In this document: positions 34,002 to 57,607 of the stretch, one piece after another
Position numbering within the stretch: position 1 is the first letter of the stretch
Layout: every line of letters starts with the position of its first letter
Assembly: GCA_029258835.1 (NCBI GenBank)
Contig: JAPDJY010000039.1
Span: 32,001 to 96,000 of the forward strand
Length of the DNA stretch: 64,000 nucleotides
Origin: Thermoproteota archaeon
GTDB lineage: Archaea > Asgardarchaeota > Jordiarchaeia > Jordiarchaeales > Freyrarchaeaceae
Direction: 5' to 3'
Position numbers and translations under genes: made by a program
Notes under the pieces: model-generated
Told to the model about the DNA's origin: nothing
What the model saw: the letters and a program-made list of their open reading frames with translations, nothing else
The model's database searches: none

Positions 34002-35109
34002 GTGCAGCTTAAAGAGTATGTTCAAGACGTGTATACTTGTAATAGGACGAGGTGCGGCTACAGCCCCCTTTAATGAAGGGGGCGGCTAATGTATTGAAGA
34101 ATGCCCTTTCTTTAAGGAATTAAGGTTGGAACCATACTCAAGTAGGGGAAAAATGCTAATAGCAAGAGGCATACTTGAAGGTATCATCAAGCCAAGCGAG
34201 AGTCTGCTTAGAATAATTACTGCTTGCACTACATGTGGCTATTGCCTTTACAGGTGTGCTCTTCATAACATAGACGTAATTGTTTCGTTGAGGGCTGAGC
34301 TAGTCCGTGCAGGATACGTTGACCCCGCCCATAAAACGGCTGCTGAAAACATTCTTTCTTTTGGAAATCCCTATTCTAGGGGATTTAAGAAGGATCTTGC
34401 TCTTCCTAGGAAGGCGGAAACAATTTTTTTTGCTGGATGCAGTTACTTCCACCTAGTCCCTGAGAAGCTTAGAGTAATAGAGGAAATTCTGCTGAAGATG
34501 AGAAATGTAGGAAGCCTTGGTGTAAGTGAGCCATGCTGTGGGAACGTTATGCTTTCGACCGGCCAAATCGATGCTTTCACGAGTTACGGTGAAAGGGTTG
34601 TCAAAATGTTTAGAGAGGCAGGTGTTGAACGTATAATTACTGCGTGTCCGGGATGCTATGAGACGCTTTACCAAGAGTACCCGAAGTTTTTCGATTTTGA
34701 CGTTGAAGTCCAGCATATAACCCAGTTTTTAGCAGATGAAATAGAGAAAGGAAAAGTGAAAGTGAAACGTTTAGATGGAGTAGCTACTTTTCATGACCCA
34801 TGCCACCTTGCAAGGTACGCAGGGATAACCGAGGAGCCACGCTTAATTATCGAGGCTACTGGTATGGAAATTGCTGAAATGGAACATAATAGGATGAACA
34901 CTATGTGTTGTGGTGGAGGGGGAGGGGCGCCCCTCGCCCATCCTAGGATTACAGCTAAAATTGCAGAAAAGAGGGTTACAGAAGCTATTAATTCGGGAGC
35001 AGGAACTATAGTAACGGCGTGTCCATTATGCGAGTACATGTTAAGTAGAGGTATTAGACGGAGGAAAAGCACGCTTAAGGTACTAGATATAACGGAGTTG
35101 GTTAAATGA
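34002..35109 (+). CDS. (Fe-S)-binding protein, GlcF/HdrD-like; spliced CDS join(34002..34061,34090..35109), 359 aa
   Basis: GAGGTG SD and GTG at 34002; removing 34062-34089 gives 'MQLKEYVQDVYTCNRTRCGY|CIEECPFF'; second cluster 'CTTCGYC..C' and two CCG domains. Confidence 0.88.
34062..34089 (+). other. 28-nt bulge-helix-bulge (BHB) intron in mRNA
   Basis: GGCU-AC^A-GCCCCCUU(UAAUG)AAGGGGGC-GGCU-AA^U: 4-bp central helix, two 3-nt bulges, 8-bp intron stem, 5-bp exon helix; removal restores CxxCxxxCP. Confidence 0.88.
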
Positions 35110-35128
35110 AAAAATTCCTGATGATTTT

Positions 35129-36052
35129 TTATCGGTAGTATGGGGCTCGTCTTTTTACAGCTTCAATGAAGAGTTTTTTTATTTCCTCTTCGGATGCTCC
35201 CTTCCGCATGGGAGTTAAAACGTCGACTAAATTGTCATTTCGCATGAGGCAAGGCTTAAGCTTTCCATCGCTTGTCACCCGTAGTCTAGTGCAGTTGGCG
35301 CAAAATTCACTATTATGGACGGGTTTGACAAGTTCAACTTCCCCGCCATCCTTTAAAAAGTATTTTTTTCTTTTTTGCATTTTTCTGATTACAACTTTTA
35401 CTGATAGTTCCTCAAGAAGTCTTTCGATGGAGGTAACATCAGCATGATATTTTTTAAGGAAAGAAGCGTTATCAGGAACAACAAGCTCTATGACTTGAAG
35501 GATGATGCCCTTTTTTCTTGAGAAATCTATTAGAGAAGGCAGTTCGGATTCGTTAACATTTTTTAGTAAAACCATATTAAGCTTAACAGGTTTTAGACCA
35601 GCTTTAAGCGCTGCGTCTATCCCGTCCAAAACGCGTCCAAAAAGCGCTTTCCCGGTGATTTTTGCATATTTTTCTTTTGAAAGAGTGTCTAAACTGATGT
35701 TAACTCTCTTCAATCCGGCTTTAGCTAGAGGCCGCGCCCATTCGGAGAGGAGAGTTCCGTTCGTGGTCATTGAGATATCACGTATTCCTTTTATTTTAGA
35801 GAGTAGCTTAACAACCTTCACTATTTCTTTGTAGAGAAGGGGTTCGCCACCAGTTAACTTTATTTTTTCTACGCCGAGGCTGGCAGCCACTTTAACAAGT
35901 AATTCGATCTCCTCAGCGCTCATTTCCACAGTTTTAGGTCCACTGCTGCAACCCTGCCCTTCATGATGACAGTAAAAACAGTTAAGGTTGCATTGCTGGG
36001 TAAGAGAAATTCTAAGGTCATTTACTGGGCGACCATATGGATCAATGAGCAT
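35129..36052 (-). CDS. moaA: GTP 3',8-cyclase MoaA
   Basis: Radical SAM 'CNLNCFYC', 'TGGEPL', C-terminal 'FCANCTRLRVTSDGKLKPCL'. Confidence 0.95.
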   Translation of the reverse strand: MLIDPYGRPVNDLRISLTQQCNLNCFYCHHEGQGCSSGPKTVEMSAEEIELLVKVAASLGVEKIKLTGGEPLLYKEIVKVVKLLSKIKGIRDISMTTNGTLLSEWARPLAKAGLKRVNISLDTLSKEKYAKITGKALFGRVLDGIDAALKAGLKPVKLNMVLLKNVNESELPSLIDFSRKKGIILQVIELVVPDNASFLKKYHADVTSIERLLEELSVKVVIRKMQKRKKYFLKDGGEVELVKPVHNSEFCANCTRLRVTSDGKLKPCLMRNDNLVDVLTPMRKGASEEEIKKLFIEAVKRRAPYYR

Positions 36053-36273
36053 TTTAGCCCCTCACAAGAGGTAGGCGTAGAACTTATGGATGCAAAGGGC
36101 AAAATAAACATTTTCTTATTTTCTTAATGTTGAGCAGAAAAAGCCGGTACAATTTGTTTTGATCGATGTAAATATCTTGCAGGTATTACTTGCTCTTATT
36201 TAACACAATAAACCGTTTGAGATCAAAAGGGGAAGGAAAGGGTGGGTTGATTTTGTTGTTTGAGCGGGGGTTT

Positions 36274-36606
36274 ATGAAGAATGAAGCTGAGACCAGTAGG
36301 GAAAAAGAGGCGTTAAAGAGGTTTGTGATCGGAGATTATGCTAAAATAGCAATTTTAGAGCAGCTCGCCAAAGGGGAATGGTGTACTTTAGGAGAGCTAT
36401 GTAGGATTGCTAAAAATTATGATAAATACATTGGCCCTGTTCGCGTTTCTACAATATTACTATATATAGAGAAAATTGCAAAGAATGTATTGGAAAAAAG
36501 TGAGGGTGGAACTTTAATTAAATGGAGAGTGAAACCTGAAAAGGTTAAAGTTATAGAGGAGTGCGTCGAGGAGGTAAAGACGCGATCTTACCGGAAGACC
36601 ATTTGA
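36274..36606 (+). CDS. Putative winged-helix DNA-binding protein
   Basis: 'KIAILEQLAKGEWCTLGELCR..KWRVK' wHTH-like pattern; start uncertain (ORF open from 36190). Confidence 0.55.
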   Translation: MKNEAETSREKEALKRFVIGDYAKIAILEQLAKGEWCTLGELCRIAKNYDKYIGPVRVSTILLYIEKIAKNVLEKSEGGTLIKWRVKPEKVKVIEECVEEVKTRSYRKTI

Positions 36607-36803
36607 AATGGTAGATAGATGATTAAGCGTGAAGCCATTTACTAAACATTGCATCATTCTCCAAGTAAAAAATAAAGCTATCTAAATGGTGGGCGACATT
36701 TAATATATGAAAAAATGATGAAGAAGTATTCTTCTGGGAGGACGTGTTGGAAATGGAAGTTTTTATTTAAAAACCGTATAGAAGAAAGGGCGGAAAATTG
36801 TTT

Positions 36804-37415
36804 TTATTCAATTTTCAGTTCTTCTATCCCATTACTTGTTATTTTGCAGATTTGGATTGTTCCGCCGGAGGCGACGTCCCTTGATCTGGCAGCTCTTATG
36901 GCGCGCTCCGCTAGTTTAGCGGCTTCTTCGACTAGTATACCATCATGATATTCGTCTTCAAGGATGCCGAAAGCTATAACGGAGCCTGAGCCGGTCGCGC
37001 CAAACTTATCTTCTTCTATAAGGCTACCCATGGGGTCTAAGGTGAATATGTGGGGGCCCGTGCCGTCTACTCCGCCTATAATAAGCATGCTTATGTATGG
37101 AAAAAGCCTATTTTGGAACAATATTAATGATGTTAGGCGGGCTGCTGCTTTTACAGAGACATCTCTCCCTAATTCAAGCTTTAAAAGGGCAAGATTAGCT
37201 TTAAGTGTATCAACTACGTGTTGACAGTCTGCAACAGAGCCGCTAATAGTCACAGCGATCTTATCCGTAATCCTGTGTATTTTAGGGGCTGCTGTACTGG
37301 CAACTAAATTTCCCATTGTTGCTTGTGATTCTGTGGCGAGAACTACTCCGTCCTTGCAAACTATCCCGACAGTTGTTGTACCAGTCATTATGAGTTTTGA
37401 TTTATCATAATGCAT
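36804..37415 (-). CDS. psmB: Proteasome beta subunit
   Basis: Propeptide then 'TG|TTTVG', 'GSVAD', 'TGSGS', 'RDVASG'. Confidence 0.95.
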   Translation of the reverse strand: MHYDKSKLIMTGTTTVGIVCKDGVVLATESQATMGNLVASTAAPKIHRITDKIAVTISGSVADCQHVVDTLKANLALLKLELGRDVSVKAAARLTSLILFQNRLFPYISMLIIGGVDGTGPHIFTLDPMGSLIEEDKFGATGSGSVIAFGILEDEYHDGILVEEAAKLAERAIRAARSRDVASGGTIQICKITSNGIEELKIE

Positions 37416-37545
37416 AGGAATCACCTTTCAATGCTGCCGTCACTTTTCTTGCTGTAAGGTTTCTTATGGCGAAACTATATAAATACTTTCACAATGAAAG
37501 TAAAGAAACATGGTCATTCTGGGGGGAAATCCTAGAGAAAATTAG

Positions 37546-37632
37546 TGGGCGGGCCAGGATTTGAACCTGGGACCTCCACGGCGTCAACTTCACCCTGATC
37601 GTGTGGCGTCATAACCGCTAGACTACCCGCCC
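37546..37632 (-). tRNA. tRNA-Val(GAC) with a 14-nt BHB intron at 30/31 (37589-37602)
   Basis: GGGCGGG/CCCGCCC acceptor stem, TTCAAAT T-loop; after splicing the anticodon arm is CCACG-TTGACGC-CGTGG; BHB helix CGCC/GGUG. Confidence 0.88.
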
Positions 37633-37642
37633 ACGATAATGA

Positions 37643-37782
37643 TGGTGGACCCCGCGGGATCTATTCACCTTTTCTAGGGCTTTGAATTCGCGGTCCCCTT
37701 AGGACACCCGCGGCCTCCGCGATGCCGACGCGCCCCTTGGAAAGGGGAAACGCGGTGCTCTACCAGGCTGAGCTAGGGGCCC
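37643..37782 (-). tRNA. tRNA-Ala(GGC) with three introns: 33/34 (37727-37748), 53/54 (37687-37706), 58/59 (37661-37681); CCA encoded
   Basis: G3:U70 Ala determinant; removing 22+20+21 nt yields a canonical 77-nt cloverleaf; each intron has a 4-bp central helix with BHB/BHL geometry. Confidence 0.88.
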
Positions 37783-37936
37783 ACCGTGATGACAGAAATA
37801 ACATTAAAGGTTTAAGTATTTTTCGGAGGGAATTCCTAACAAGAAAATTTACTTTAAAGAGGTTCTCCTAAAAGTTTAGCTTTAAAAGGAGAAAGTATTT
37901 TTTGGGTTTTTATAATAAAATAGGGTTTAATGGGTT

Positions 37937-38329
37937 TTGGGGAAAGTGATGAATTGGGATAATTCATTTTACTGGTGGATCGCGAACCCCGGAATAAACT
38001 TTTTGCTTTCACTCATTTTTTCTGTTATAGCATTCATAAGTATTCTATTTTTTTTAAGTAATTTGATTAGATTATCAGTTAATCAAAAAAATAGGAGCAG
38101 GTATATTATAGGTCTATTAGTTTCCATGATTGTAGTAGGAATTTGTGTAAGATGGGATTGGTTCCTTATCTACATAGGTAATCTATCGAGCTTTTTGGTA
38201 GAAGGTATAGGAGACATATTTATGAAAGTTATTTACTACTGGCATTTTTACAATTCTAATCAATTTACAAATACTACTACAATGCTTCAAGGCCTATTAG
38301 AAAGGCTACTCGTTTTGAACTTTAACTGA
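37937..38329 (+). CDS. AT-rich small membrane hypothetical protein
   Basis: Two to three hydrophobic segments; low GC. Confidence 0.55.
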   Translation: MGKVMNWDNSFYWWIANPGINFLLSLIFSVIAFISILFFLSNLIRLSVNQKNRSRYIIGLLVSMIVVGICVRWDWFLIYIGNLSSFLVEGIGDIFMKVIYYWHFYNSNQFTNTTTMLQGLLERLLVLNFN

Positions 38330-38424
38330 ACATTGAAACTATTAAATTTCAACTGGAAAAGGAGCCCATACAGTTTTGAATTTTAAATCTTTAAAGAAAG
38401 AATGTAAAAGGGAGCAAATATAAG

Positions 38425-38688
38425 CTACTTATTCCTAAGTGTGTATATCTCATTGTCTACAAGTATATAAAATGTGTAGTCATGGAGTATGATTGGCTTC
38501 CTAAATAAGAAAGCTAATTTTAGAAAGTTTGAGACTTGTGCTTCACCCTTAAAAACTATTTCAGAACTCACTTGTTTGTTAAGTTTAAATTCATCAGGAG
38601 AAATTATCGGAACCTTCTCTTCTTTAGCTTTACTTTTAACCCGTTCCACAAATTCAGCCTTCTCTGGGTCTTCACCGAAAATAGGCAT
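38425..38688 (-). CDS. Small hypothetical protein
   Basis: GGGGG SD before ATG; typical codon usage. Confidence 0.6.
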   Translation of the reverse strand: MPIFGEDPEKAEFVERVKSKAKEEKVPIISPDEFKLNKQVSSEIVFKGEAQVSNFLKLAFLFRKPIILHDYTFYILVDNEIYTLRNK

Positions 38689-39196
38689 TTAATCTTTCCC
38701 CCTTCGAACAAGTTATCACTTATGCTCCGTTATAATTTCAAAGTAACTCTAAACTTTTTAATGTTTCTTTCGCACCACTCCTCACATCAGATAGTGCAAG
38801 TCTTAATAGTTAAAGGCAAATATTTAAACAATTTATAGAACATACCATAATCATTAAGAACTTTAAAAATGTTAGTAGATCATTGATCATAACGCTTAAA
38901 AGCAAACCTAAATTATGGAATGTAATAGCCATATTATCAATATTCTTACATAACAACGTCGGCGTCCACCAAAAACATTCTAGATGGAAGGCAATCCGCA
39001 GTTTCCACATCAGAACATTGCTTAGAAAAATGTAAGGAAGTTCCTTTAGTGGCTATTCCAAGGAGCAAGAGGATTTTTAAAAGGAGAATAAAACAACAAT
39101 GTGAAATGCAGAAGCAAGGGAGAGCAACAATAAAGATACTTTTTTAAAGAAACATGAATTTTGGTTTTAGCTGGAAAAGAGAGAAAAGCGGGTGAA

Positions 39197-39922
39197 ATGG
39201 GGGAAGTATTTAATTTGACCCAAGAGGGCAGTTCGATCTCAAAGGGAGACTTTATTCTTGTTGACTTAACTGGCCGTGTAAAAAATGGGGAAGTTTTTGA
39301 AACGACGTCAAAAGATGTTGCTGAGAAAGAGGGAATATATGATGAGGGACAAGCTTATGAACCTAAACTTGTTATTGTGGGTGAGGGATGGATTCTCCCG
39401 AAGTTAGATGAAGTACTGGAAAAAATGAGAGTTGGTGAGACGAGAACTGTTAAAATAGAAAATGCTTTTGGAGAGTGGAAGAGAGAAAATGTTAAGTCCT
39501 TACCACTAAAGGAATTCTTAAAAAGTAATATTGAACCTAAACCAGGAATGCGCGTAAGAATAGGAAACAGGTTAGCTACTGTTAAGAGGGTTGGTGGAGG
39601 GCGGGTTCGTGTTGATTTAAATCATCCTTATGCGGGAAAAACTGTTGTCTATGAGGTCACAATAAAAGAAAAAATAACTGATAAACAAGAGAAGATAAAA
39701 GCATTGATTAGAAGGAGAATGCCGGACATTCCATTAGAAAAAACCAAGATCACAACCAGCAATGAAGAGAGGATCATAATTGAATTACCAAAAGAAGTAT
39801 TATTTGCGGATGGAGTACAGTTTGTTAAGTATGGTATAGCAAATGATCTTAAAAGATACTTGAATTTTGAAGAGATAATATTTGTCGAGAAATATGGCGA
39901 AGAATTACTCGGTAGGTCTTAG
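39197..39922 (+). CDS. Long-type FKBP peptidyl-prolyl isomerase (SlyD-like)
   Basis: 'GEVFETT', 'VIVGEG', 'VRVDLNHPYAGKT'. Confidence 0.92.
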   Translation: MGEVFNLTQEGSSISKGDFILVDLTGRVKNGEVFETTSKDVAEKEGIYDEGQAYEPKLVIVGEGWILPKLDEVLEKMRVGETRTVKIENAFGEWKRENVKSLPLKEFLKSNIEPKPGMRVRIGNRLATVKRVGGGRVRVDLNHPYAGKTVVYEVTIKEKITDKQEKIKALIRRRMPDIPLEKTKITTSNEERIIIELPKEVLFADGVQFVKYGIANDLKRYLNFEEIIFVEKYGEELLGRS

Positions 39923-40351
39923 ATACGCCAGTCTCAACGTTTTTCCAGCTTGGCAATCATTAATAACGCCTTCAACACTTTCAACTATGCACCGATCGCC
40001 AGGTCTTAAAAATTCAGGGTTGCATAAATTTATGTTGGGACAATCGGAAAAATGGCATTCTATGGGTTTATAAAGTATTAAGGCGCCTTTCACAGCTTGC
40101 TTGGAGTCAAGCACTGCTAAGATAGGAGAGAAGACCACTTCAACTGTTTTCACCCCGTCTTCATGTATCTTGCATGGATGTACCATGTCCCTAACATTAA
40201 CAACCTCGTACACGCGTCCAGGCTCTAAATTTTCAATACAAACCTTCTGTAACGTACATGACTTACAAAGATCAACTGCTCCGCAATGTATAAATTTAAA
40301 ACCAATCTTAGCCTGCCTAACCCCCACCAAAGTTAAGAAGCGGCGAGTCAA
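39905..40351 (-). CDS. UPF0179 family protein
   Basis: 'TLVG..AKIG..F..C..C..C..NLEPGRVYEV..R..HPC.IH'. Confidence 0.85.
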   Translation of the reverse strand: MTRRFLTLVGVRQAKIGFKFIHCGAVDLCKSCTLQKVCIENLEPGRVYEVVNVRDMVHPCKIHEDGVKTVEVVFSPILAVLDSKQAVKGALILYKPIECHFSDCPNINLCNPEFLRPGDRCIVESVEGVINDCQAGKTLRLAYLRPTE

Positions 40352-40377
40352 TGTATAATTGCCTCCCTTTAAAGAAT

Positions 40378-41457
40378 TTAGCTTATAACACCCGTCACGG
40401 TTGCTAATCGTATAGCAGCCTCCCTGTTTATTCCTCGTTCACCAAGGATCGTATATCTATCAGGGCGGATAGTATGAGCCATACAGAGAGCCTTTATGAT
40501 GTATTCAGGGTCGATCCCTAACTCTTTCGCTGTTGTAGGTGCACCTATGGTTTTTAACGCGTCTCTAATTGCCTGCCAATCTCCGCCATGAAGGTACATC
40601 ATCATTATTGCTCCAATGCCACATTGCTCCCCATGAAGTGCGGGATTTGGAGCAATCATATCTAGAGCGTGACTAAACATATGCTCTGCGCCACTAGCTG
40701 GTCGACTGCTACCGGCAATACCCATGCTAACGCCACTACTTATTAGGGCTTCTATAACGGTACGTAGACTGTCCTCGGTCCTTTGAGCTATAAAGGAGGC
40801 ATTCTGTAAAATTAATTCACCACTTAAACGGGCAAGGGACGCAGCGTATTCGCCGAAATACTCATTTTTTAGCTTGTATGCCAGCTCCCAATCTTTAACC
40901 GAAGTTATATTAGCTATAACATCTCCACATCCAGCGGCAGTTAGTCTGTAAGGGGAACTACCTATTATGTTAGTATCTGCTATTATAACAAGCGGTGTAG
41001 ATGCTTTAAGAGAATGAGGGGTTTTTGCGTTCTTAATGCTTGCACGTGGAGAGGCGATTCCGTCATGGGATGCAGCGGTAGGCACGCTTATAAAAGGTAA
41101 ACCTTCAAGATGAGCGGCAAGCTTTGCAACGTCAATTACAGTACCTCCACCAACTCCAAGTACTACACTTGGGTGAAGGACATGAATTTTCATTCTTACT
41201 TTGTCGACTTCACACATGGTAGGATTTTCCACTATTATCATTGAATTAGGTATTTTAGAATCCTCTAGAGACCCAGCAACTTTCTTACCAGCTACTTTAC
41301 TCGTTTTTGGCCCAGAAATTATAAGAGCAGATTTTGTTAGACCTAATTTAACGCAGACATCGCCAGCCATATTAATTACATCTCGGCCTACAAGCACTTC
41401 CCTTGGTAACTCCATCTTATGTACAGGTAAACGCACTTGTAACGGCAGCATTTCCAT
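40378..41457 (-). CDS. egsA: sn-glycerol-1-phosphate dehydrogenase
   Basis: 'GVGGGTVIDVAK', 'PTAASHDGIAS', 'SRPASGAEHMFSHALD', 'HGEQCG', 'RYTILG'. Confidence 0.96.
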   Translation of the reverse strand: MEMLPLQVRLPVHKMELPREVLVGRDVINMAGDVCVKLGLTKSALIISGPKTSKVAGKKVAGSLEDSKIPNSMIIVENPTMCEVDKVRMKIHVLHPSVVLGVGGGTVIDVAKLAAHLEGLPFISVPTAASHDGIASPRASIKNAKTPHSLKASTPLVIIADTNIIGSSPYRLTAAGCGDVIANITSVKDWELAYKLKNEYFGEYAASLARLSGELILQNASFIAQRTEDSLRTVIEALISSGVSMGIAGSSRPASGAEHMFSHALDMIAPNPALHGEQCGIGAIMMMYLHGGDWQAIRDALKTIGAPTTAKELGIDPEYIIKALCMAHTIRPDRYTILGERGINREAAIRLATVTGVIS

Positions 41458-41942
41458 TTCCACCTTATATTGAAGCTTTTGGGTTATTGGAATACGGATA
41501 TATCCCTTCTAAGGTTATTCTCATCTTTAAGGGTTTGATATTTACATCTGGTTTTAATATTTACCACCCTTCCTATTTCCTGAAAACGTTTATTGACGAA
41601 AAATAGACTATTAGTTAGAGGAAAGACGAAAATATGGCTTCCGAAGGAAGAGAAACTAGCTGAAAATAAAAAATCTCTTGTTTTGCGAAACGTTTATTAC
41701 AACTAAGATAATCATAAAACACAGTTTACATTCGAATAAAAATCGTCTTTTAGCCCCAAAACGGGTTAAACCGGATTAAAAGGCATTCTTACAAAAGCAC
41801 ATTTTGTATATCTGGGATGGGAACTTGATAAATGCCATCATAAAAATTCGGGGAAAAACGTTTCTCCTAGGTGAAATGGTACCAATTTGCCATGTTTTTA
41901 GGGAAAAATATGCATAGCAGTAGCAGAAGGGAGAGATGGTTG

Positions 41943-46962: not shown

Positions 46963-48426
46963 CTAGCCCTTCACTACTCCAATAGGGCGCAACTTGGCTA
47001 CCAGCGAGGCAATCCCAACCTTGTGGGAGACCTCGGCTACTACGTCTACATCTTTATATGCCTCAGGTGCTTCTTCGCTTACTACTACCATGCTGGCGGC
47101 TTGAACAAGAATTCCTGATTTTTGAAGGTCATCCTTAACCTTCTCTCCCCAAAACTTTTTCTTCGCCCCAGCTCTGCTAAGCCGTCTACCAGCACCATGA
47201 GCGGTCGAGCCAAAGCTCAGTTCCATAGACTCTTTCCTACCTCTCAACACATAGCTGGCAGTCCCCATGGTTCCAGGAATAAGAACAGGTTGACCTATAT
47301 CTCTGTATTTTTGAGGGACTGCAGGGTGTCCTGGAGGAAACGCCCTAGTGGCACCTTTCCTATGGACACAAACAGTTTTTTCTGTACCGTCTACACGGTG
47401 CCGTTCAAACTTAGCGATATTATGGGCCACATCATAGACAAGGTGAATTCCAAGATCCTCCGGGGATGAATTAAAGACCTTGCCAAAGGACTCACGTACC
47501 CAATGCATTATGCATTGCCTATTTGCCCACGCGAAATTAGCGGCAGAAGCCATTGCCGCTAGGTAGTCCTCACCTTCTCTACTTTTACCTGGAACTGCTG
47601 CCAGCTCTCTATCAGGAAGGGAGATGCCATATTTTCTTACAGCATGCTCCATAACTTTTAAGTAATCAGAACAAACTTGATGGCCAAGACCTCTAGATCC
47701 CGTATGGATCATAATTGTAACTTGCCCTTCAAACAGCCCTAAGCATTTCGCTGCTTCACCGTCATAAATACGCTCAACGTATTGTATTTCTAAGAAGTGA
47801 TTGCCACTACCTAAAGTGCCAAGTTGCGGTGCACCTCTACTTTTCGCTTTAGAGGAAACCTTGCCTGCATCTGCCCCTTTAAGACATCCTTCCTCCTCAC
47901 AATAAAACTTATCTTCATCCCAACCGAAGCCTTGATCAACTGCCCAGCTTACGCCGGATTCTAACACTTCATCCAGTTCAGAATGAGATATTCGAATTTT
48001 ACCTTCAGACCCTACTCCGCTAGGTACTTCCTTAAATAGGACGCTTAAAAGGCCTTTGAGTTTAGGAGTAACATCGTCTTTTAAAAGATCCGTTCTAAGA
48101 AGACGCACACCACAGTTAATATCGTATCCTACGCCGCCGGGAGACACTACGCCGCCCTCTTCGAAATCGATGGCGGCAACGCCCCCTATTGGAAAGCCAT
48201 ACCCTTGATGAGCATCAGGTAAAGCGATCGAATGCTTTTGGATTCCAGGGAGGCATGCAACGTTCATGGCTTGAATAAGTGTTTGGTCCTTTTTCATACC
48301 TTCTAGCAACATTTCATTTGCAAAAACTTTAGTAGGTACGCGCATACACTTCTTAGTACCTTTTGGTATCTCCCAAATGAAATTACTTACCTTCTTTAGA
48401 GGAATATTCGCGCTCAAGAACCTCAT
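46963..48426 (-). CDS. rtcB: RNA-splicing ligase RtcB
   Basis: 'PDAHQGYGFPIGG', 'GYDINCG', 'LGSGNHFLE', 'HRKGAT', 'HGAGR'. Confidence 0.97.
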   Translation of the reverse strand: MRFLSANIPLKKVSNFIWEIPKGTKKCMRVPTKVFANEMLLEGMKKDQTLIQAMNVACLPGIQKHSIALPDAHQGYGFPIGGVAAIDFEEGGVVSPGGVGYDINCGVRLLRTDLLKDDVTPKLKGLLSVLFKEVPSGVGSEGKIRISHSELDEVLESGVSWAVDQGFGWDEDKFYCEEEGCLKGADAGKVSSKAKSRGAPQLGTLGSGNHFLEIQYVERIYDGEAAKCLGLFEGQVTIMIHTGSRGLGHQVCSDYLKVMEHAVRKYGISLPDRELAAVPGKSREGEDYLAAMASAANFAWANRQCIMHWVRESFGKVFNSSPEDLGIHLVYDVAHNIAKFERHRVDGTEKTVCVHRKGATRAFPPGHPAVPQKYRDIGQPVLIPGTMGTASYVLRGRKESMELSFGSTAHGAGRRLSRAGAKKKFWGEKVKDDLQKSGILVQAASMVVVSEEAPEAYKDVDVVAEVSHKVGIASLVAKLRPIGVVKG

Positions 48427-50234: not shown

Positions 50235-50269
50235 TCTTAACCACCTCTTTTTTACACTGTTTTTCTCTT

Positions 50270-50926: not shown

Positions 50927-50950
50927 TTTAACTTCCCTTTAAAACTCTGC

Positions 50951-51958
50951 TTAGGAGGAAAAATCAACTGAGGGATAAAGATCTTCCCATCGTTTCCTTC
51001 CAAGCACTACTTCTAATTCTTCAGGAGTTAAGATGGGTATGCTGAAGCGGCATGCATCCTCGATGGCTATTCTTGGACACGCGGTTACAACCAAGGCTTC
51101 AACGCTGCTGAAATTTAAAATATGGTCTGGTGTGACGTCACGCATAGCAAGCATGTATGCGCTTTTACCTGCGTCAAGAAGAATATTTCTTACGTATTTG
51201 GCTAGTTCTAAGCGTTTTTGTCCGGGTTTCATGCTGACGATTACTCCAAAGTTTTTAGCATGCTTAGCTTGAGATATATGTGCATAGCGTTCAAGCAATA
51301 ACTTTTTCACGATGGGGGCCACATCATGAACACTGCCTGTGTACGGGTCAAACGAGAAGACCCGCTTACCAGTAAACATGGATATGCCGACTGCATGAAA
51401 AAATCCGCCTCCTATAAACAAAACGGTGTCAACATTCGGTGATGTAACGTTCGAGAAATCGCACCCTAAAACTTGCCCGGGATAGGGAGCTCTCCTACTT
51501 TTCCTTTCTAAGACGACTTTAACACCTTTCTCCTCTAGAAGCTTTCTTAGGAGAGGTAGTTCCCAAGAGTGTTGGACAGTAGACGCCAGGATTAACGCCT
51601 TTATACCTAATTCCTCGACAGCTCTAACAACATCTTGCATGACACTTTTAGTATATTTAGCTTCGATAAACAAGGTAGGAACTTTTGTTTTAATAGGCCA
51701 GGGAGCATGACCGAAATGGACGAGAACGTCTGCACCTAAGCTCTTCGCTTCAGAATCAGCTAAGTCGCATGCACCCCAGCAAGGATCAGCAGATATTATA
51801 ATAGACGCCCCTGTCTTTTCCTCTAGAAAGGACGCTACCTTGAATGCGTAACGTAGCAGTCCTTCAGGGAACTGTAAGAGAGCGCATTTTACATTTCTTA
51901 ACTTGAGTTCGGAGGCAAGTTTTACGAGTTCCAGGTCAAAGTCGTCGGTGTCTATCAT
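50951..51958 (-). CDS. dph2: Diphthamide biosynthesis enzyme Dph2
   Basis: 'LQFPEG', 'GACD', 'HFGH', 'QVLGC', 'ACPRI'. Confidence 0.94.
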   Translation of the reverse strand: MIDTDDFDLELVKLASELKLRNVKCALLQFPEGLLRYAFKVASFLEEKTGASIIISADPCWGACDLADSEAKSLGADVLVHFGHAPWPIKTKVPTLFIEAKYTKSVMQDVVRAVEELGIKALILASTVQHSWELPLLRKLLEEKGVKVVLERKSRRAPYPGQVLGCDFSNVTSPNVDTVLFIGGGFFHAVGISMFTGKRVFSFDPYTGSVHDVAPIVKKLLLERYAHISQAKHAKNFGVIVSMKPGQKRLELAKYVRNILLDAGKSAYMLAMRDVTPDHILNFSSVEALVVTACPRIAIEDACRFSIPILTPEELEVVLGRKRWEDLYPSVDFSS

Positions 51959-52091
51959 AGAGCTCCAACCAACAGGTCTCTTATCTTCAACGTCACTAAA
52001 GAAGAAAAAATATTTTTTCCTTAAAAGGTTAAAAGACAGCCAGCAGAAAGTTAAAAGGTCCGTTAAAAGTTAAGCGAATGGTGCTAGAGAG

Positions 52092-53351
52092 ATGGTTGAA
52101 ATGACCGGCACTATTAGGAAAGTTAATGCACAGAAAATTCTTGATTCTAGAGGGAACGCTACAATTGAAGTGCGAGTATACACAGAAGACGTTGTAGCAA
52201 GTGCCTGCGCTCCATCTGGAGCAAGCGTCGGGCGCTTTGAAGTACGCGCTTTCCCGGAAGGGGGCGTAGATGCCTCGATTGAAATGGTGAATAAGATTTC
52301 AAGTAAACTGAAGGGTTTGAACGTGGAAGAGCAGAACGTTGTTGACTCGGTTATACACGAATTTGATAGTACGAAACAATTCGAAAAGTTAGGGGGAAAC
52401 GCGGCTATAGCGACCTCTATAGCGGTGGCAAAAGCTGCAGCACTAGAAAAAAACGTCCGGCTCTGCGAACATATAGCCGATGGACGGCTAAGGTTGCCTT
52501 TTCCTCTCAGTAACATCATAGGAGGAGGGGTTCATACGAAGGGAGATTCTATAGACTTTCAAGAGTTCTTAGTAGTGCCTCTTGGCGCTAAGAAGTTTAG
52601 AGACGCGGCTGTAGCAAACGTGATGGTGCATAAAGAAGTTGCCCGAATCTTGACTTCTCAGAGGCCCCACTACGTGTTTGGAAGAAATGATGAGGGAGCA
52701 TGGGCGGCCCCATTAACAATTAAAGAAGCTCTCGAAGTATTAAGCAATGCAGCCCAAAAAGTAGAGGGAGAATTGGGAATAGAGGTGAAAATAGGCGTTG
52801 ATGCAGCAGCTTCGGAACTTTGGATCGAAGATGAAAAGGTATATGTTTATAGGAAGGAAAAATGTAAGAAGTCGACCAGCCAGCAGTTAGACTACGTTTT
52901 GTCACTTATCGAAGAATACGACATATTTTATTTTGAAGACCCATTTGGCGAAGAAGACTTTGAAGCATTTGCAAAATTGAATAAAAACGTAAGTGGAAGA
53001 TGCCTTGTTACAGGAGACGACTTAACGGTGACTAATAAAGAGAGATTAAAAACAGCCTTAGAAAGAGGCTCAGTTAGTAGCATTATAGTCAAACCGAACC
53101 AGGTTGGGACGCTCACTGACGTTAAGGAAACGGTAACTCTGGCACTGTCAAATAACGTAGTTCCGGTCGCTTCCCACAGGTCAGGAGAAACATGCGACTC
53201 TGCCTTAGCACATATAGCAGTAGGATTGAAATGCCCAATAATAAAAATCGGGATCATGGGTAGTGAACGAATGGCTAAAATAAACGAACTAATAAGACTG
53301 GAGGACGAGATGGGATTAAGGATGGCTAAGCCACCGTTCTCGGATAGTTAA
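52092..53351 (+). CDS. eno: Enolase; last codons supplied by an inserted element
   Basis: 'ILDSRGNAT', 'PSGAS', 'GDDL', 'KPNQVG', 'SHRSGET'. Confidence 0.95.
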   Translation: MVEMTGTIRKVNAQKILDSRGNATIEVRVYTEDVVASACAPSGASVGRFEVRAFPEGGVDASIEMVNKISSKLKGLNVEEQNVVDSVIHEFDSTKQFEKLGGNAAIATSIAVAKAAALEKNVRLCEHIADGRLRLPFPLSNIIGGGVHTKGDSIDFQEFLVVPLGAKKFRDAAVANVMVHKEVARILTSQRPHYVFGRNDEGAWAAPLTIKEALEVLSNAAQKVEGELGIEVKIGVDAAASELWIEDEKVYVYRKEKCKKSTSQQLDYVLSLIEEYDIFYFEDPFGEEDFEAFAKLNKNVSGRCLVTGDDLTVTNKERLKTALERGSVSSIIVKPNQVGTLTDVKETVTLALSNNVVPVASHRSGETCDSALAHIAVGLKCPIIKIGIMGSERMAKINELIRLEDEMGLRMAKPPFSDS

Positions 53352-54572
53352 CATTTTATTACTATCCGTTCCACCTCTGCACTAAGTGCTTCGTGGGTGG
53401 CTTTCGGGGGGAACGGGAACTCCCCACATCTTGGGTTTCTTTCAAGGAGGTTTAAACATGCAACTACGTCTCTGTCTTTTTCACATCCGCATTTCCTGCA
53501 CTTTAGAAGCCTATGCCCATTCGACGCCAGCTTCCCGCCACATATTGGGCATAGGCTTGAAGTTCCACGGGGATTAACGTATACGACTGGTAAACCTGCA
53601 AGTTTCGCTTTATATTCGATGTAGGATTGAAGCCTTCTATATGGTAGCGTGTGCAGTCTTCTATTCATTCTTTTACCGTAACGTATTTGTTTCCTCATGC
53701 CTTTAAGGTTCTCCATGACGATTCCGAAACCATGTTTCCTAGCTCTGCTAACTATCATCTTGGCAATCTTGTGGCATAAACTCTCTGTTCTATTTCTCTT
53801 CCTCTTAGAGTATTTTTTCATAAGCCTCTTGGAAGCTGTCGGTTTAAGCTTCGACAGCTTCTGTATTTTCCTCCTCTTCTCGAAGTAGCTACTTCTGATT
53901 TCTCTCAGGTCGTGCTCAAACCTTATAATGTGTGGGTTCGTGCTTACGCATGTAACGTTGGATTCGTTTACATCTATCGCTATCCAGCCCTTCGGATTCG
54001 TTAAATCAACATCTTTCCTAAAGGGCACTAAAACTTTTGTTTTGTTGATTAAAACCTCTCCCACTCTAAGTCTTCCAGCCTTCCATTCTTCTATGAAGCG
54101 TTTCTGGTAGCCCCCATACTTCAACTTTACGTAGATAAACCTTCTAGGCTTAACAGATATTCTAAGCCTTTCCCCTTCATACTTGACAAGCAAGGGGTCT
54201 AATTGCATGAAAAAGCTTCCTCGCCACAGGTTTATCGCTTTTTGTAATACCTTTCCTCTTAAGCCTCCTAAAGCTCTTCAACATTGACGTAGCCACCCTG
54301 CACGACGAATGGCAAAAGTGAGTTGAGTAATCCCATTTCTGTTTCCATTCACCATAGACAAGTTTCCTGAGCTCGGCAAAACTTGTGGCATTATTCCGAA
54401 GAACTTTACCGATGCAAAAGTTAACCATATCCCTAAAATCCTCTAACAGCTTTCTAATCTCATCACTCGCCTCATAACCGAAGGGAACTGAAAGCGTTAT
54501 TTCTATCATTCATCAATTAAGTATTAACCAAAATATTATAAAAAGTTAGCTATTCATAAACTGTTACTAACC
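53336..54572 (-). mobile_element. Non-autonomous IS607-like (tnpB-only) insertion sequence
   Basis: Flanked by CC (GG on - strand) at 53334-35 and 54571-72; joining the flanks rebuilds eno '..AAG CCA CCC TTA ACT TAA' followed by the SD and ATG of the next gene; subterminal hairpin CGGATAGT..ACTATCCG; no tnpA. Confidence 0.78.
53348..54509 (-). pseudogene. tnpB: TnpB RNA-guided nuclease with a 1-nt frameshift near 54210
   Basis: RuvC motifs 'IAIDVN', 'VMENL', 'DRDVVACLN', Zn finger CxxC..CxxC; the two ORFs join as 'RKLF|MQLDP' if one T is removed from CTTTTT. Confidence 0.85.
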
Positions 54573-54594
54573 CTTAACTTAAGAGGGAAAAGCA

Positions 54595-55035
54595 ATGGAG
54601 ACGTCCCTCAAAGTAGCAGAGTTTATAATAAAAAGGTATTGCAAAGCAAACAAGATAGTGGAAGTGGGGGTTGGAAAAAAACCCCAAACGGCGCTTAAAC
54701 TCTCAAAGGCACTTAATGCAGAAATAATAGTAACGGATGTAAAACCAGAGGTAATAGCGCCGTTAACAAAGGAAAAGAAGATTAAAGCAATAATAGATGA
54801 TGTGTTCAACCCTAACCTAGAAATTTACAAGGGAGCAAACCTGATATATGCTATTAGGCCTAACCCTGAAGTCCAAGGCCAAGTAGTGAACATAGCTTTA
54901 AGAGTAGGAGCGGATGCTCTTTTAAAGACATTAAACGATGAATGGCATGAAGTAACGCAAACACCCATGAAACACCAAACAGTAAACTACAAAAACGTGA
55001 TCATGCATCATTTTCTAAATCCTAAAATTCATTAG
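54595..55035 (+). CDS. UPF0146 family protein
   Basis: 'KIVEVGVG', 'DDVFNPNLEIYKGANLIYAIRP'. Confidence 0.85.
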   Translation: METSLKVAEFIIKRYCKANKIVEVGVGKKPQTALKLSKALNAEIIVTDVKPEVIAPLTKEKKIKAIIDDVFNPNLEIYKGANLIYAIRPNPEVQGQVVNIALRVGADALLKTLNDEWHEVTQTPMKHQTVNYKNVIMHHFLNPKIH

Positions 55036-55182
55036 GATGCTTTCAAAGGTTAGCCGCAATTGCCTTTCTTTAAAATGTATTGGAGGAATTTCTGATTCCC
55101 AATTTACAAGGTTAAGGATAAACAAAGATAAATTTAAAAACAGGGAAATAATCCTTTGATTAGGGTTTGTAAGGGAGGTGGC

Positions 55183-57607
55183 ATGGCCTTGTCAAGAGAC
55201 GAGAGGTTTGTCTTATGGTTTGAAGAGATCAGAAAAGACGATGTACCGATAGTAGGTGGAAAATGCGCGAATCTAGGTGAGTTAACAGCTGAAGTTAAAG
55301 TCCCAGTTCCACCAGGATTCGCTGTGACCACTCATGCATATAAGCAGTTCATAGAAACCACGAAAATAAAGGATAAGATTTTCAAGAAACTTGAAGGTTT
55401 AGACGTAAAAGATATGAAAATGCTTGAAAACGCATCGGCAGAAATAAGAAAGTTAATTGAATCAACCCCTGTACCCGAAGAAATACAGTCTGCCATCTTA
55501 AGTGCATACGATGAACTCTCTAAACGGGCGGGGAAAAATCCCTTTGTAGCCGTCCGCTCTAGCGCCTCGGCAGAGGACAGGTTTTCCAGCCCCTCAGCTG
55601 CCGGGCGCCAGTTTCGCTGGACAACAGGATACATTCTTAAACGTTACTAGAGACGAGCTGGTAAGTAGTGTTAGAAGATGCTGGAGTAGCCTTTTTACGC
55701 CAAGGGCAATAGCATATAGGGAAGAGAAGGGTTTTTCACATGAAGAAGTATCCATAGGCGTAGCTATCCAAGAGATGGTTGACGCTAAAGCAGCAGGGGT
55801 AATGTTTACTATACATCCAGTTACAGGTGAAAGAAATAAAATTCTTATTGAAGCCAATTGGGGGCTAGGAGAAGCCGTAGTAAGTGGCGCCGTAACGCCA
55901 GATACCTATGTCGTAGATAAAGAAACATTTGAGATCATCGACAAACATATTGTAACTAAAAAAGTCGAGTATGTAAGGGACCCAAAAACCGGGAAGACAG
56001 TTCACGCAGAAGTCCCCCCGGAAAGACAGAATATTCCTGCTTTAACAGACGAGGAAATAAAGGCGCTTGCAAAATATGCACTTCAAATAGAACAACATTA
56101 TAGAACACCACAGGATATAGAGTGGGCAGTTGATAAAGATGGGAGAATATTCATACTTCAAGCAAGACCTGAGACGGTCCATTCTGCAGGGGGAATTCAA
56201 GCGCAAGTATTAGAGGCTGCTGAGGAAAGAGAAGTGCTAGTAAGAGGGCTGCCAGTATCCCCAGGCCTAGGAGCAGGAAAAGTTAAAGTTATCTTAGATG
56301 CTAAGGACATAGACAAAGTTAAGGAAGGAGACATTTTAGTTACAAAAATGACCACTCCTGATTGGGTTCCAGCCATGAAAAAGGCAGCGGCAATAGTGAC
56401 TGATGAAGGGGGCTACACGTGCCATGCAGCAATAGTTTCACGTGAACTAGGTGTACCATGCATTGTTGGTACTGGAAATGCAACAGAAGTTCTTGCGAAT
56501 GTGGAGGAAGTAACCGTTGACGGAGGAAAGGGACTAGTCTACCGTGGAATAATTAAAGAAGCAGCTGAAGAGGTGGTGCCTACAGCTGCGGTAACTTATG
56601 CGATAGTGCCGACAGCAACTAAGATATATGTTAACCTTTCAATTCCAGAGATCGCTGATAAAGTTGCAAGGGAAACAAGAGCAGATGGTGTAGGGCTTCT
56701 AAGAGCAGAACACATGATGGTTACCATAGGAAAGCATCCACGCAAACTCATTGAGGAGGGTGGAGACCAGCTTATGGTGGATTCCTTTGCGGAGGGCATC
56801 AGGAAAGTTGCCGAAGCGTTTTATCCTGGTCCTGTCGTATATAGGTTCCTAGACTTTAAGCCTGACGAATTCCTAGCCCTAGAGGGAGGAGAAAAGTATG
56901 AGTTAGAGGCAGGGCATGTAGGACCAAATCCAATGATAGGCTACAGGGGACAATACAGATACGTTAAGGAGCCAGACATATTCAGGCTAGAGTGTAAAGC
57001 AATAAGAAAGGTTAGAGATGAATTTGGCCTTAAAAATGTTTGGGTAATGTTGCCTTTCGTTAGAGACATAGAGATCTTCCGGAAAGTGAAGGAGATAATG
57101 AAGCAGGAGGGGCTGGATCCCGAGAAAGATCCTGACTTTAAACTCTGGATAATGGTGGAGGTCCCAAGTAGCGTCCTGTTAATTGACAAGTTCTGTGAAG
57201 AAGGGATAAACGGAGTGTCTTTTGGCACAAACGACCTAACAATGCTGATACTTGGCGTAGACCGTAACGATGCTTCGGTACAGGAGATATACGATGAACG
57301 AAACCTAGCAGTCCTCAGGGCAATAGCTTACACAATAAAAATATGCAAAAAGTACGGGGTGACAACGTCTATTTGTGGGCAAGCACCCAGCGTTTACCCG
57401 GACTACTTAGAATTCCTAGTTAGGATGGGAGCAACATCAATAAGCGTAAACCCGGACGCTGTACAACGTACACGTGAAATGGTTGCAAGAATAGAGCAGA
57501 AGATACTGATGGAGAAAGCATTAGGAGTTAAAACAAGAATCAAAGTTGGAAAGAATTTCATAGAAGAAGTCGAGTTCTGGAAAAAAGTAGATGACAATTT
57601 AGAATAA
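55183..57607 (+). CDS. ppsA: Phosphoenolpyruvate synthase; spliced CDS join(55183..55578,55598..57607), 801 aa
   Basis: GGAGGTG SD; 'VGGKCANLGE'; splicing gives 'AVRSSASAED|LPGASFAGQQDTFLNV'; phospho-His 'TCHAAIVSRE'; 'SFGTNDL'. Confidence 0.93.
55579..55597 (+). other. 19-nt bulge-helix-bulge (BHB) intron in ppsA mRNA
   Basis: GAGG-AC^A-GGUU(UUCC)AGCC-CCUC-AG^C: Watson-Crick 4-bp central helix, two 3-nt bulges, about 10-bp exon-exon helix; removal restores frame and the AEDLP motif. Confidence 0.9.

What the first reader, a model, noticed from the sequence alone, without database searches (positions are those of the whole stretch)
34002..57607. tRNA-type (BHB) splicing of multiple protein-coding mRNAs: a candidate archaeal mRNA intron system
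Seen: of about 57 CDSs, two unrelated conserved metabolic genes (Fe-S GlcF-like and ppsA) are each broken by a 19-28 nt insert. Both inserts form a strict bulge-helix-bulge with the cut after the second bulge base. Both are phase 0, length 3n+1, have an AC^A 5' junction, and sit inside a conserved motif that only BHB-register excision restores. The window also holds four tRNA introns at non-canonical positions and rtcB. Established: the archaeal EndA endonuclease plus RtcB splice BHB introns in tRNA and rRNA; the well-documented protein-gene case is essentially cbf5 in Crenarchaeota. Inference: this lineage may splice many mRNAs. Two in 64 kb would extrapolate to dozens genome-wide, and standard pipelines would annotate them as pseudogenes. 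If the host is Asgard-related, this bears on the origin of non-spliceosomal mRNA splicing such as HAC1/XBP1-type splicing.
Basis: partly seen in the sequence, partly recalled or inferred. Interest (0 to 1): 0.95.

Follow-up and report, generated by a model that had tools for sequence, protein, structure and literature searches.

The report
tRNA-type introns inside Asgard protein genes
Two ordinary metabolic genes of an Asgard archaeon (class Jordarchaeia) are each interrupted by a tiny intron of the kind normally cut out of tRNAs, at least eleven more genes in the same genome are too, and this matters because only one protein gene (cbf5) was known to be spliced this way in archaea.

Summary
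No RNA evidence could be obtained.

- **The two inserts.** ppsA carries a 19-nt insert (55579-55597) and a GlcF/GlpC-like Fe-S gene carries a 28-nt insert (34062-34089). Each folds as helix / 4-bp helix / 3-nt bulges / helix, the bulge-helix-bulge (BHB) motif. Cutting after the second bulge base restores the protein exactly.
- **Exact junctions.** In ppsA, Pfam PPDK_N profile positions 113 and 114 meet at the junction. In the Fe-S gene the spliced product has the CX4CX2CX3CP motif that intron-less orthologues have.
- **Conservation.** The host is an Asgard archaeon of class Jordarchaeia. Relatives carry inserts at the same sites, with other lengths (18-30 nt), other sequences and compensatory stem changes. 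Both exons stay open and constrained.
- **DNA support.** Contigs from three sequencing runs bridge the ppsA insert with no indel.
- **Machinery.** The genome has two EndA paralogues, one RtcB (in the window) and Archease.
- **Genome-wide.** A homology screen against two other Asgard genomes, plus directed looks, gave 13 protein genes with frame-restoring BHB introns. One is cbf5, split at the same codon position as in Crenarchaeota.
- **What is not general.** The "3n+1, phase 0, AC^A" pattern does not hold across the 13.

First readers of this scan noted similar introns on other pieces of this genome. I found no paper reporting them.

The parts
32537..33997 (+). GlcD-like FAD-linked oxidase, upstream partner of the Fe-S gene (context)
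   Evidence: Pfam FAD_binding_4 and FAD-oxidase_C.
34002..34061 (+). Exon 1 of the GlcF/GlpC-like Fe-S gene (20 codons, GTG start, ends ...CNRTRCGY)
   Evidence: The N-terminus (M..E.Y..DIYTCNRTRCG[FY]) is conserved in orthologues with and without the intron.
34062..34089 (+). 28-nt BHB intron, phase 0. The whole motif spans 34051-34095: h 34051-55/34091-95, H 34056-59/34084-87, bulges 34060-62 and 34088-90.
   Evidence: Sequence. Same site in all five family genomes at 27-30 nt, with 95% of cells paired and four stem pairs changed on both sides.
34090..35109 (+). Exon 2 of the Fe-S gene (starts CIEECP; two CCG domains)
   Evidence: Pfam CCG (two stretches); Fer4_8 starts at profile position 11 at residue 1 (E 8e-5, below the family cut-off).
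37545..37632 (-). tRNA-Val(GAC) with a 14-nt intron at position 32
   Evidence: ARAGORN with intron search; Rfam tRNA 52.9 bits.
37643..37782 (-). tRNA-Ala(GGC) with three introns (33/34, 53/54, 58/59)
   Evidence: Read by eye: G3:U70, T-stem GCGGG/CCCGC, TTCAAAT T-loop. The first intron fits a BHB, CGCG [UU^U] ... CGCG [UC^G]. No program called this gene.
46963..48426 (-). rtcB, the 3'-phosphate RNA ligase; the only copy in the genome
   Evidence: Pfam RtcB, E 1.6e-182, at G000:C1:78966-80273.
55183..55578 (+). ppsA exon 1 (132 codons, ends ...SSASAED)
   Evidence: Pfam PPDK_N profile positions 2-113.
55579..55597 (+). 19-nt BHB intron, phase 0. The whole motif spans 55566-55605: h 55566-72/55599-605, H 55573-76/55592-95, bulges 55577-79 and 55596-98.
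   Evidence: Sequence. The stretch 55562-55612 folds at -28.4 kcal/mol, z -4.45. Same site in 9 related genomes (in one of them most of it reads N) and one metagenome contig, at 18-30 nt. DNA contigs of three runs bridge it with no indel.
55598..57607 (+). ppsA exon 2 (669 codons, starts LPGASFAGQQ)
   Evidence: Pfam PPDK_N from profile position 114, then PEP-utilizers and PEP-utilizers_C. One ppsA match in the genome.

Best explanation

**Proposed mechanism.**
1. The pre-mRNA folds locally into helix / 4-bp helix flanked by two 3-nt bulges / helix.
2. The archaeal splicing endonuclease EndA cuts after the second base of each bulge. The genome has two paralogues, consistent with the (alpha-beta)2 type reported for Asgard.
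3. RtcB, helped by Archease, joins the exons. The intron is probably released as a small circle.
4. Only the spliced mRNA encodes full-length PEP synthase or the Fe-S subunit. Unspliced mRNA ends at a nearby stop codon.

**Scale.** The same process applies to at least eleven further genes of this genome, cbf5 among them.

**Shown here:** the motifs, the exact restoration of the proteins, conservation with compensatory change, presence of the inserts in DNA, and presence of the enzymes.

**Inferred:** cleavage and ligation themselves, and which enzyme does them.
For: **Exact junctions.**
- ppsA exon 1 ends at Pfam PPDK_N profile position 113 and exon 2 starts at 114.
- The spliced Fe-S product reads YTCNRTRCGYC...CP. 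Intron-less orthologues in Freyarchaeia and other Asgards read YTCNRTRCGFC...CP.

**Conservation at the same site.**
- The ppsA insert is present in the same family (18, 19, 20 nt) and in the sister family (29, 30 nt).
- It was not found in the 8 other Asgard ppsA genes examined.
- The 18- and 30-nt versions are in frame, but the frame open downstream of the junction is only 671-676 aa against about 800-830 aa in genomes without the insert, and the 18-nt version opens with an in-frame TGA.
- A metagenome variant has a perfect 8-bp stem.
- The Fe-S gene insert is in all five family genomes (27-30 nt) and not in the sister family.

**Structure is what is conserved.**
- Fe-S gene intron: 95% of cells paired against 36-59% when the partner columns are slid, with four pairs changed on both sides.
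- ppsA intron: 89% paired against 48-62%.

**The genes are alive.** In ppsA, dN is 0.09-0.29 in both exons while dS is saturated. The genome has a single ppsA match.

**The inserts are in DNA.** Contigs from three runs bridge the ppsA insert with no indel. One related genome with the insert is a closed chromosome.

**Machinery.** Two EndA paralogues, each with N-terminal and catalytic domains; RtcB; Archease. Asgard EndA is reported as (alpha-beta)2 with the broad-specificity L1 loop (PMC5829648).

**Same rule elsewhere in the genome.**
- Homology-defined breaks in 10 further genes, plus cbf5, each have a frame-restoring BHB of the predicted length.
- In every case where both scored, the canonical motif outscored the mirrored control.
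- The cbf5 boundary lies between the first and second letter of the catalytic Asp codon. That is the boundary assigned to crenarchaeal cbf5 introns, for which spliced cDNAs are reported (PMC2738675).
Against: - No RNA evidence. The only RNA run holding part of ppsA covers 56142-56347, not the junction.
- The outer exon helix of the Fe-S gene intron is weak: 5 bp, three of them G-U.
- ViennaRNA's minimum-energy fold of the ppsA region draws 2x2 internal loops instead of 3-nt bulges. The BHB is therefore an alternative pairing of the same bases, not the computed optimum.
- The covariation rests on 5 and 8 related sequences.
- The BHB motif by itself is as common as a mirrored control across the genome.
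Confidence: 0.88

Rival explanations
1. The introns are real EndA substrates, but splicing is conditional. The unspliced mRNA is a deliberately silent form, and cleavage plus ligation acts as a switch on enzyme output, in the manner of HAC1/XBP1. This refines the best explanation and does not exclude it.
For: - Unspliced transcripts end at nearby stops, so splicing gates protein output.
- The targets include central enzymes and information-processing genes.
- The introns have been kept for long evolutionary periods instead of being lost.
Against: - Nothing measured here bears on regulation.
- ppsA gives one match in the genome and cbf5 one locus, so constitutive splicing is the simpler reading.
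- Introns may persist only because precise loss is rare.
Confidence: 0.2
2. The ribosome skips the insert by translational bypass or programmed frameshifting, without any RNA cutting.
For: - The inserts are short and contain a hairpin.
- Crenarchaeal cbf5 introns were once mistaken for translational frameshift sites (PMC2738675).
Against: - There are no matching take-off and landing codons: GAC against CAG at ppsA, TAC against TAA at the Fe-S gene.
- Orthologous inserts are 18-30 nt long and fall in all three frame classes. The 18-nt ppsA and the 30-nt Fe-S gene versions carry an in-frame stop; the 30-nt ppsA version is inferred to, from its short open frame. One frameshift rule cannot cover them.
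- What is conserved is the two-bulge geometry and the cut register, which the ribosome does not read.
Confidence: 0.03
3. The inserts are assembly or sequencing artefacts, or lesions in dead genes.
For: - The genome is a metagenome bin with 6% estimated contamination.
- The homology screens also turned up several plain +1/-1 frameshift candidates elsewhere in it.
Against: - The same sites are interrupted in up to 10 other independently assembled genomes, one of them a closed chromosome.
- DNA contigs from three runs bridge the ppsA insert.
- Both exons are intact, with dN far below dS.
- The lesions always fall in the one register that restores the motif.
Confidence: 0.02

Closest known systems
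cbf5 pre-mRNA intron of Crenarchaeota (Watanabe 2002; Yoshinari 2006; Yokobori 2009, PMC2738675)
   Same: - A short (16-44 nt) BHB intron in a protein gene.
- Cut between the second and third bulge residue.
- Often a relaxed motif that needs the hetero-oligomeric endonuclease.
- This genome's own cbf5 has such an intron (27 nt) at the same codon position, G|AC of the catalytic Asp.
   Different: - The host genes here are ppsA and an Fe-S oxidoreductase subunit, plus at least ten others.
- The lineage is Asgard (Jordarchaeia), not Crenarchaeota.
- There are many introns per genome, not one.
- No cDNA evidence exists yet for this genome.
Non-canonical and multiple tRNA introns of Thermoproteales and of Freyarchaeia/Atabeyarchaeia (PMC11291895)
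   Same: - Same motif and presumably the same enzymes.
- The window's tRNA-Ala and tRNA-Val carry four such introns.
- One tRNA-Ala intron shares a CCCCUUU...AGGGG hairpin with the Fe-S gene intron.
   Different: - The substrate is an mRNA. The exon junction must keep a reading frame and the flanking helices are built from codons.
- PMC11291895 reports the tRNA introns. Its passages on introns do not mention protein-gene introns.
HAC1/XBP1 unconventional mRNA splicing (IRE1 plus tRNA ligase or RtcB)
   Same: - Non-spliceosomal removal of a short intron from an mRNA by a protein endonuclease and a tRNA-type ligase.
- Splicing changes the reading frame.
   Different: - The endonuclease and the RNA motif differ: IRE1 cuts twin stem-loops, not a BHB.
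- No IRE1 nuclease domain was found here, but that search had no positive control.
- No evidence of regulation.
- Any evolutionary link is conjecture.

Membership tests
Archaeal BHB intron (EndA/RtcB-spliced) | Two 3-nt bulges on opposite strands, separated by a 4-bp helix, in the canonical orientation | tested here: met
   - ppsA: GAGG/CCUC with bulges ACA and AGC.
- Fe-S gene: GGCU/GGCU with bulges ACA and AAU.
- The H helix is fully paired in all orthologues except one A-C mismatch in G006 ppsA.
Archaeal BHB intron (EndA/RtcB-spliced) | Cutting after the second bulge base on both sides gives the functional product | tested here: met
   Pfam PPDK_N positions 113|114 are contiguous. The CX4CX2CX3CP motif matches intron-less orthologues.
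Archaeal BHB intron (EndA/RtcB-spliced) | Flanking helices h (exon-exon) and h' (within the intron), the strict hBHBh' form | tested here: met
   - ppsA: h 7 bp, h' 4 bp.
- Fe-S gene: h 5 bp (weak, three G-U), h' 8-9 bp.
- Most of the other 11 introns lack h, the relaxed HBh' form.
Archaeal BHB intron (EndA/RtcB-spliced) | Structure kept across species through compensatory change | tested here: met
   Four (Fe-S gene) and two (ppsA) pairs changed on both sides. Pairing is 95% and 89%, against at most 62% when slid. The samples are small: 5 and 8 sequences.
Archaeal BHB intron (EndA/RtcB-spliced) | The genome encodes a splicing endonuclease and an RtcB ligase | tested here: met
   Two EndA paralogues of 190 and 308 aa, RtcB, Archease.
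Archaeal BHB intron (EndA/RtcB-spliced) | Spliced RNA and an excised (circular) intron observed | not testable with these tools
   The only RNA run holding part of ppsA has one 206-nt contig at 56142-56347, away from the junction.
cbf5-type pre-mRNA intron (as a homologous intron position) | Intron between the first and second letter of the catalytic Asp codon of cbf5 | tested here: not met
   The two window introns lie in other genes, so they are not members of that intron position. This genome's cbf5 does meet it (G000:C27:11929-11955).
Translational bypass (T4 gene 60 type) | Matching take-off and landing codons flanking the skipped stretch | tested here: not met
   GAC against CAG at ppsA; TAC against TAA at the Fe-S gene.
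HAC1/XBP1-type splicing | IRE1 kinase-nuclease and twin stem-loop cleavage sites | tested here: inconclusive
   No match to the Ribonuc_2-5A domain, but no control genome matched either. The RNA motif here is a BHB, not twin 7-nt loops.

The most novel reading that the evidence does not exclude
Jordarchaeia and Freyarchaeia (Asgard) run a genome-wide, tRNA-enzyme-based mRNA splicing system with a few dozen introns per genome.
- The introns lie in core metabolic, ribosomal, replication and signalling genes.
- They were gained at different depths: genus, family, order.
- They probably spread from the very intron-rich tRNA genes.
- The cbf5 intron, at the identical codon position in Crenarchaeota and in several Asgard lineages, could then go back to before the TACK-Asgard split. 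In that case protein-enzyme mRNA splicing would predate eukaryotes in the archaeal lineage that gave rise to them.
Probability: 0.45. Interest if true: 0.92.

Novelty: new member of a known kind. Interest (0 to 1): 0.85.

Why it matters
**State of knowledge.** In the papers I could search, archaeal mRNA splicing by the tRNA endonuclease rests on one gene, cbf5 in Crenarchaeota. A 2025 structural paper on these enzymes still cites only those cbf5 studies. In the passages I read, work on Freyarchaeia reports 92-95% of tRNA genes with introns and no protein-gene introns.

**What changes if this holds.**
- mRNA splicing without a spliceosome would be routine in a lineage of the closest archaeal relatives of eukaryotes.
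- Translation of these genes must wait for RNA processing. That bears on how transcription and translation are coupled in these cells.
- Gene callers will systematically report truncated or split ppsA, dnaG, eL42, kae1, ahcY and similar genes in these genomes. Metabolic reconstructions of Asgard archaea will therefore wrongly score them as missing or broken.
- Whether the cbf5 intron is ancient or arose repeatedly at one site becomes testable with many more lineages.

Tried and rejected
**Motif-only scans.** I ran three genome-wide scans: BHB plus ORF joining, with coding-potential filters, and with an A-first bulge rule. Each gave as many hits for a mirrored control motif as for the real one. 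The motif alone cannot count introns, so I dropped this route in favour of homology-defined breaks.

**Automatic choice of the best BHB.** Picking the top-scoring BHB near a break gave wrong answers for dnaG, the GTPase and eL42 until the intron length was tied to the homology gap.

**RNA evidence.** Run X19 holds only 56142-56347 of ppsA, so it says nothing about the junction.

**Metagenome pattern scan for ppsA junctions.** 120 loci came back and only 2 were ppsA.

**Shared-hairpin search (CCCCTTT...AGGGG).** It gave 14 sites, few of them in BHB context. This is a hint of relatedness between a few introns, not an intron family.

**Fetching relatives.**
- For the same reason the ahcY loci of relatives could not be read.

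**IRE1 domain search.** No positive control matched, so it shows nothing.

**Breaks not counted as introns.**
- The break in the C38 pyruvate:ferredoxin oxidoreductase match is probably two adjacent genes that are fused in Odinarchaeum.
- The breaks on C11, C29, C35, C39 and C40 had no convincing BHB.


Full report
**What is in the window.** A GlcD-like FAD oxidase (32537-33997) is followed by a GlcF/GlpC-like Fe-S gene. That gene starts at GTG 34002 and runs into a stop after 23 codons. A 339-codon frame with two CCG domains opens at 34090. ppsA starts at 55183 and leaves its frame after codon 132. The rest of the gene, 669 codons, is in another frame from 55598. Removing 34062-34089 (28 nt) and 55579-55597 (19 nt) gives single frames of 359 and 801 codons.

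**The junctions are exact.**
- Pfam's PPDK_N model matches ppsA exon 1 over profile positions 2-113 and exon 2 from position 114, so no residue is missing or extra.
- The spliced Fe-S product reads YTCNRTRCGYCIEECP. Orthologues that have no insert, in Freyarchaeia and other Asgard lineages, read YTCNRTRCGFC...CP.
- A 7-nt direct repeat (GCGGCTA) flanks the 28-nt insert. Deleting one repeat copy would leave a TAA at the junction. Only the BHB register gives TAC-TGT.

**The fold.** Both inserts have the canonical archaeal splicing motif in the canonical orientation. On each strand the order is outer helix, 4-bp helix H, 3-nt bulge, other helix, and the cut falls after the second bulge base.
- ppsA: CUCGGCA-GAGG-[AC^A]-GGUU-uucc-AGCC-CCUC-[AG^C]-UGCCGGG.
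- Fe-S gene: GGUGC-GGCU-[AC^A]-GCCCCCUU-uaaug-AAGGGGGC-GGCU-[AA^U]-GUAUU.

The Fe-S gene's H helix and outer helix contain G-U pairs. The ppsA stretch 55562-55612 folds well (-28.4 kcal/mol, z -4.45). The minimum-energy drawing, however, uses 2x2 internal loops instead of bulges.

**Who the host is.** The closest public ppsA loci are titled Ca. Jordarchaeales (86% identity) and Ca. Freyarchaeota, including a closed 3.58-Mb chromosome. Next come Odinarchaeota and Baldrarchaeota. The genome is a 2.72-Mb, 91-contig bin, 94.7% complete with 6% contamination.

**Comparative test, ppsA.**
- ppsA is interrupted at exactly the same junction in the same family: 18, 19 and 20 nt, plus one genome in which most of the insert reads N.
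- It is interrupted there in five genomes of the sister family as well: 29 and 30 nt.
- It is uninterrupted in the eight other Asgard ppsA genes I examined.
- Intron sequences differ completely between the two families. All keep GAGG/CCUC (one has an A-C mismatch), two 3-nt bulges and an inner stem.
- The 18- and 30-nt versions are in frame. Their open frame downstream of the junction is only 671-676 aa, against about 800-830 aa in genomes without the insert, and the 18-nt version opens with an in-frame TGA.
- A metagenome contig adds a 28-nt variant with a perfect 8-bp stem.

**Comparative test, Fe-S gene.** The intron is in all five genomes of the family at 27, 27, 28, 28 and 30 nt. The 30-nt one carries an in-frame TAA. 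The intron is absent from the sister family.

**Pair counts.**
- Fe-S gene: 95% of cells paired against 36-59% with slid partners, and four stem pairs changed on both sides.
- ppsA: 89% against 48-62%, with two such pairs.
- The samples are small (5 and 8 sequences), so I treat these counts as supportive only.

**Not dead genes, not artefacts.**
- In four comparisons of ppsA, dN is 0.09-0.29 in both exons while synonymous sites are saturated.
- ppsA gave a single match in the genome.
- Contigs from three DNA runs of different studies bridge the 19-nt insert with no indel. Two of them are 10.3 kb long. One of these runs may be the window's own source.

**Machinery.**
- Two EndA paralogues of 190 and 308 aa, each with the N-terminal and catalytic domains.
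- One RtcB, inside the window at 46963-48426.
- Archease.
- Kaneta et al. report that Asgard archaea have the (alpha-beta)2 endonuclease with the L1 loop linked to broad substrate range (PMC5829648).
- The window also holds tRNA-Val with one intron and tRNA-Ala with three, all at non-canonical positions.

**How many genes.** Motif scans could not answer this, because a mirrored control motif was as frequent as the real one. I used homology instead.
- I fetched the 1.42-Mb Odinarchaeum genome and 1.1 Mb of a Baldrarchaeum genome. I then searched their open frames against this genome and listed places where one protein aligns in two adjacent pieces.
- Where the extra DNA was 14-55 nt, a BHB of exactly that length in the frame-restoring register was present in eleven genes: ppsA, dnaG (31 nt), a Ras-family GTPase (32), a 444-aa protein of unknown family (28), a radical SAM enzyme (55), ahcY (23), a 111-aa protein (20), an aconitase-family large subunit (29), PCMT (25), eL42 (29) and a gene I take to be kae1/tsaD (14). 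The kae1/tsaD name rests only on my reading of the GPG motif at the junction, with no family search.
- In the radical SAM enzyme, splicing restores CNLRCP|IC.
- With the Fe-S gene and cbf5, that makes 13.
- In every case where both scored, the canonical motif beat the mirrored control.
- Lengths fall in all classes modulo 3. The first bulge base is A in 25 of 26 bulges. Most of these introns lack the outer exon helix.
- About 1.0 Mb of the genome was testable against Odinarchaeum. A total of a few dozen is a fair but rough extrapolation.
- The reverse screen found one good case in Odinarchaeum, a 29-nt intron at G011:827298-827326. From my memory of the motif (unchecked), the gene looks like glycine cleavage P-protein.

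**cbf5.**
- This genome's cbf5 is split by a 27-nt BHB intron (G000:C27:11929-11955): CACU-[AG^A]-GCCCUUAC-ucac-GUAAGGGC-GGUG-[AA^A].
- The boundary lies between the first and second letter of the catalytic Asp codon.
- Yokobori et al. assign the crenarchaeal cbf5 boundaries to that same place and mention unpublished spliced cDNAs for five species; the earlier cbf5 papers they build on report the pre-mRNA splicing itself (PMC2738675).
- The intron is present in all 11 Jordarchaeia/Freyarchaeia genomes and in three further Asgard families, with compensatory changes in H (CACU/GGUG, CACU/AGUG, CUCU/AGAG).
- It was not found in Odinarchaeum, Baldrarchaeum and ten other Asgard genomes among the loci examined.

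**Literature.** Searches of the held library found only the cbf5 work for protein-gene BHB introns. No paper combined cbf5, intron and Asgard, and none reported mRNA BHB introns in Asgard archaea. Valentin-Alvarado et al. report that 92-95% of tRNA genes in Freyarchaeia and Atabeyarchaeia have introns; the passages on introns that I read mention no protein genes (PMC11291895). A 2026 preprint on Asgard tRNA introns does not use the word mRNA. Subscription journals are not covered, so prior description elsewhere cannot be excluded.

**Verdict.** The best explanation is removal at the RNA level by EndA and RtcB. The comparative evidence for it is strong, but it is unproven at the RNA level. The mechanism is a known kind. 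What is new is the set of host genes, the number per genome and the Asgard lineage.

Noticed in passing
G000:C27:11929-11955 (outside the window); relatives L217-L246: cbf5 of this Asgard genome has a 27-nt BHB intron between the first and second letter of the catalytic Asp codon, the site described for Crenarchaeota. It is present in all 11 Jordarchaeia/Freyarchaeia genomes and in three other Asgard families, and was not found in Odinarchaeum, Baldrarchaeum and ten other Asgard genomes examined.
   Followed up: yes
window 34054-34060 and 34082-34088: A 7-nt direct repeat (GCGGCTA) flanks the Fe-S gene intron. It follows from GGCU pairing with itself in the H helix. In relatives the second copy reads GCGGCCA, so it is not a strict duplication. 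It may still hint at how the intron arose.
   Followed up: partly
window 37727-37748 (-) and 34064-34083 (+); G000:C10:52786-52813; C4:24354-24376: A CCCCUUU...AGGGG hairpin is shared by the first tRNA-Ala intron, the Fe-S gene intron and, in close variants, two other mRNA introns. Only 14 such hairpins exist in the genome, so this is a hint of common origin for a few introns, not a family.
   Followed up: partly
L143-L213 (G011, Odinarchaeum), genome position 827298-827326: One convincing 29-nt BHB intron, CCCC [AU^A] ... GGGG [AG^A], joins ...LTAYTP|YQAEASQG... in a gene that, from my memory of the motif, looks like glycine cleavage P-protein. The same screen that found ten in this genome found one in Odinarchaeum.
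   Followed up: partly
L005 (G004), at the ppsA junction: The orthologous ppsA intron region of this relative reads as a run of N starting 5 nt into the insert, so its intron could not be read.
   Followed up: no
G000:C39:21764-23007, C5:4026-4952, C4:35499-36712, C24:21155-21600: Several conserved genes show plain +1/-1 frame changes with no BHB. They could be assembly errors, contamination (6% estimated) or real pseudogenes.
   Followed up: no
Table (ahcY in relatives): The ahcY intron of this genome is not seen in the four other genomes of its family. Freyarchaeia ahcY genes, however, show an in-frame stop or a split near the same residue, which suggests either loss in one genus or independent gain. 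The loci could not be fetched.
   Followed up: partly
window 34090-35109 and genome-wide: The GlcF/GlpC-like Fe-S gene family gives 14 matches in this genome and up to 25 in Freyarchaeia.
   Followed up: no
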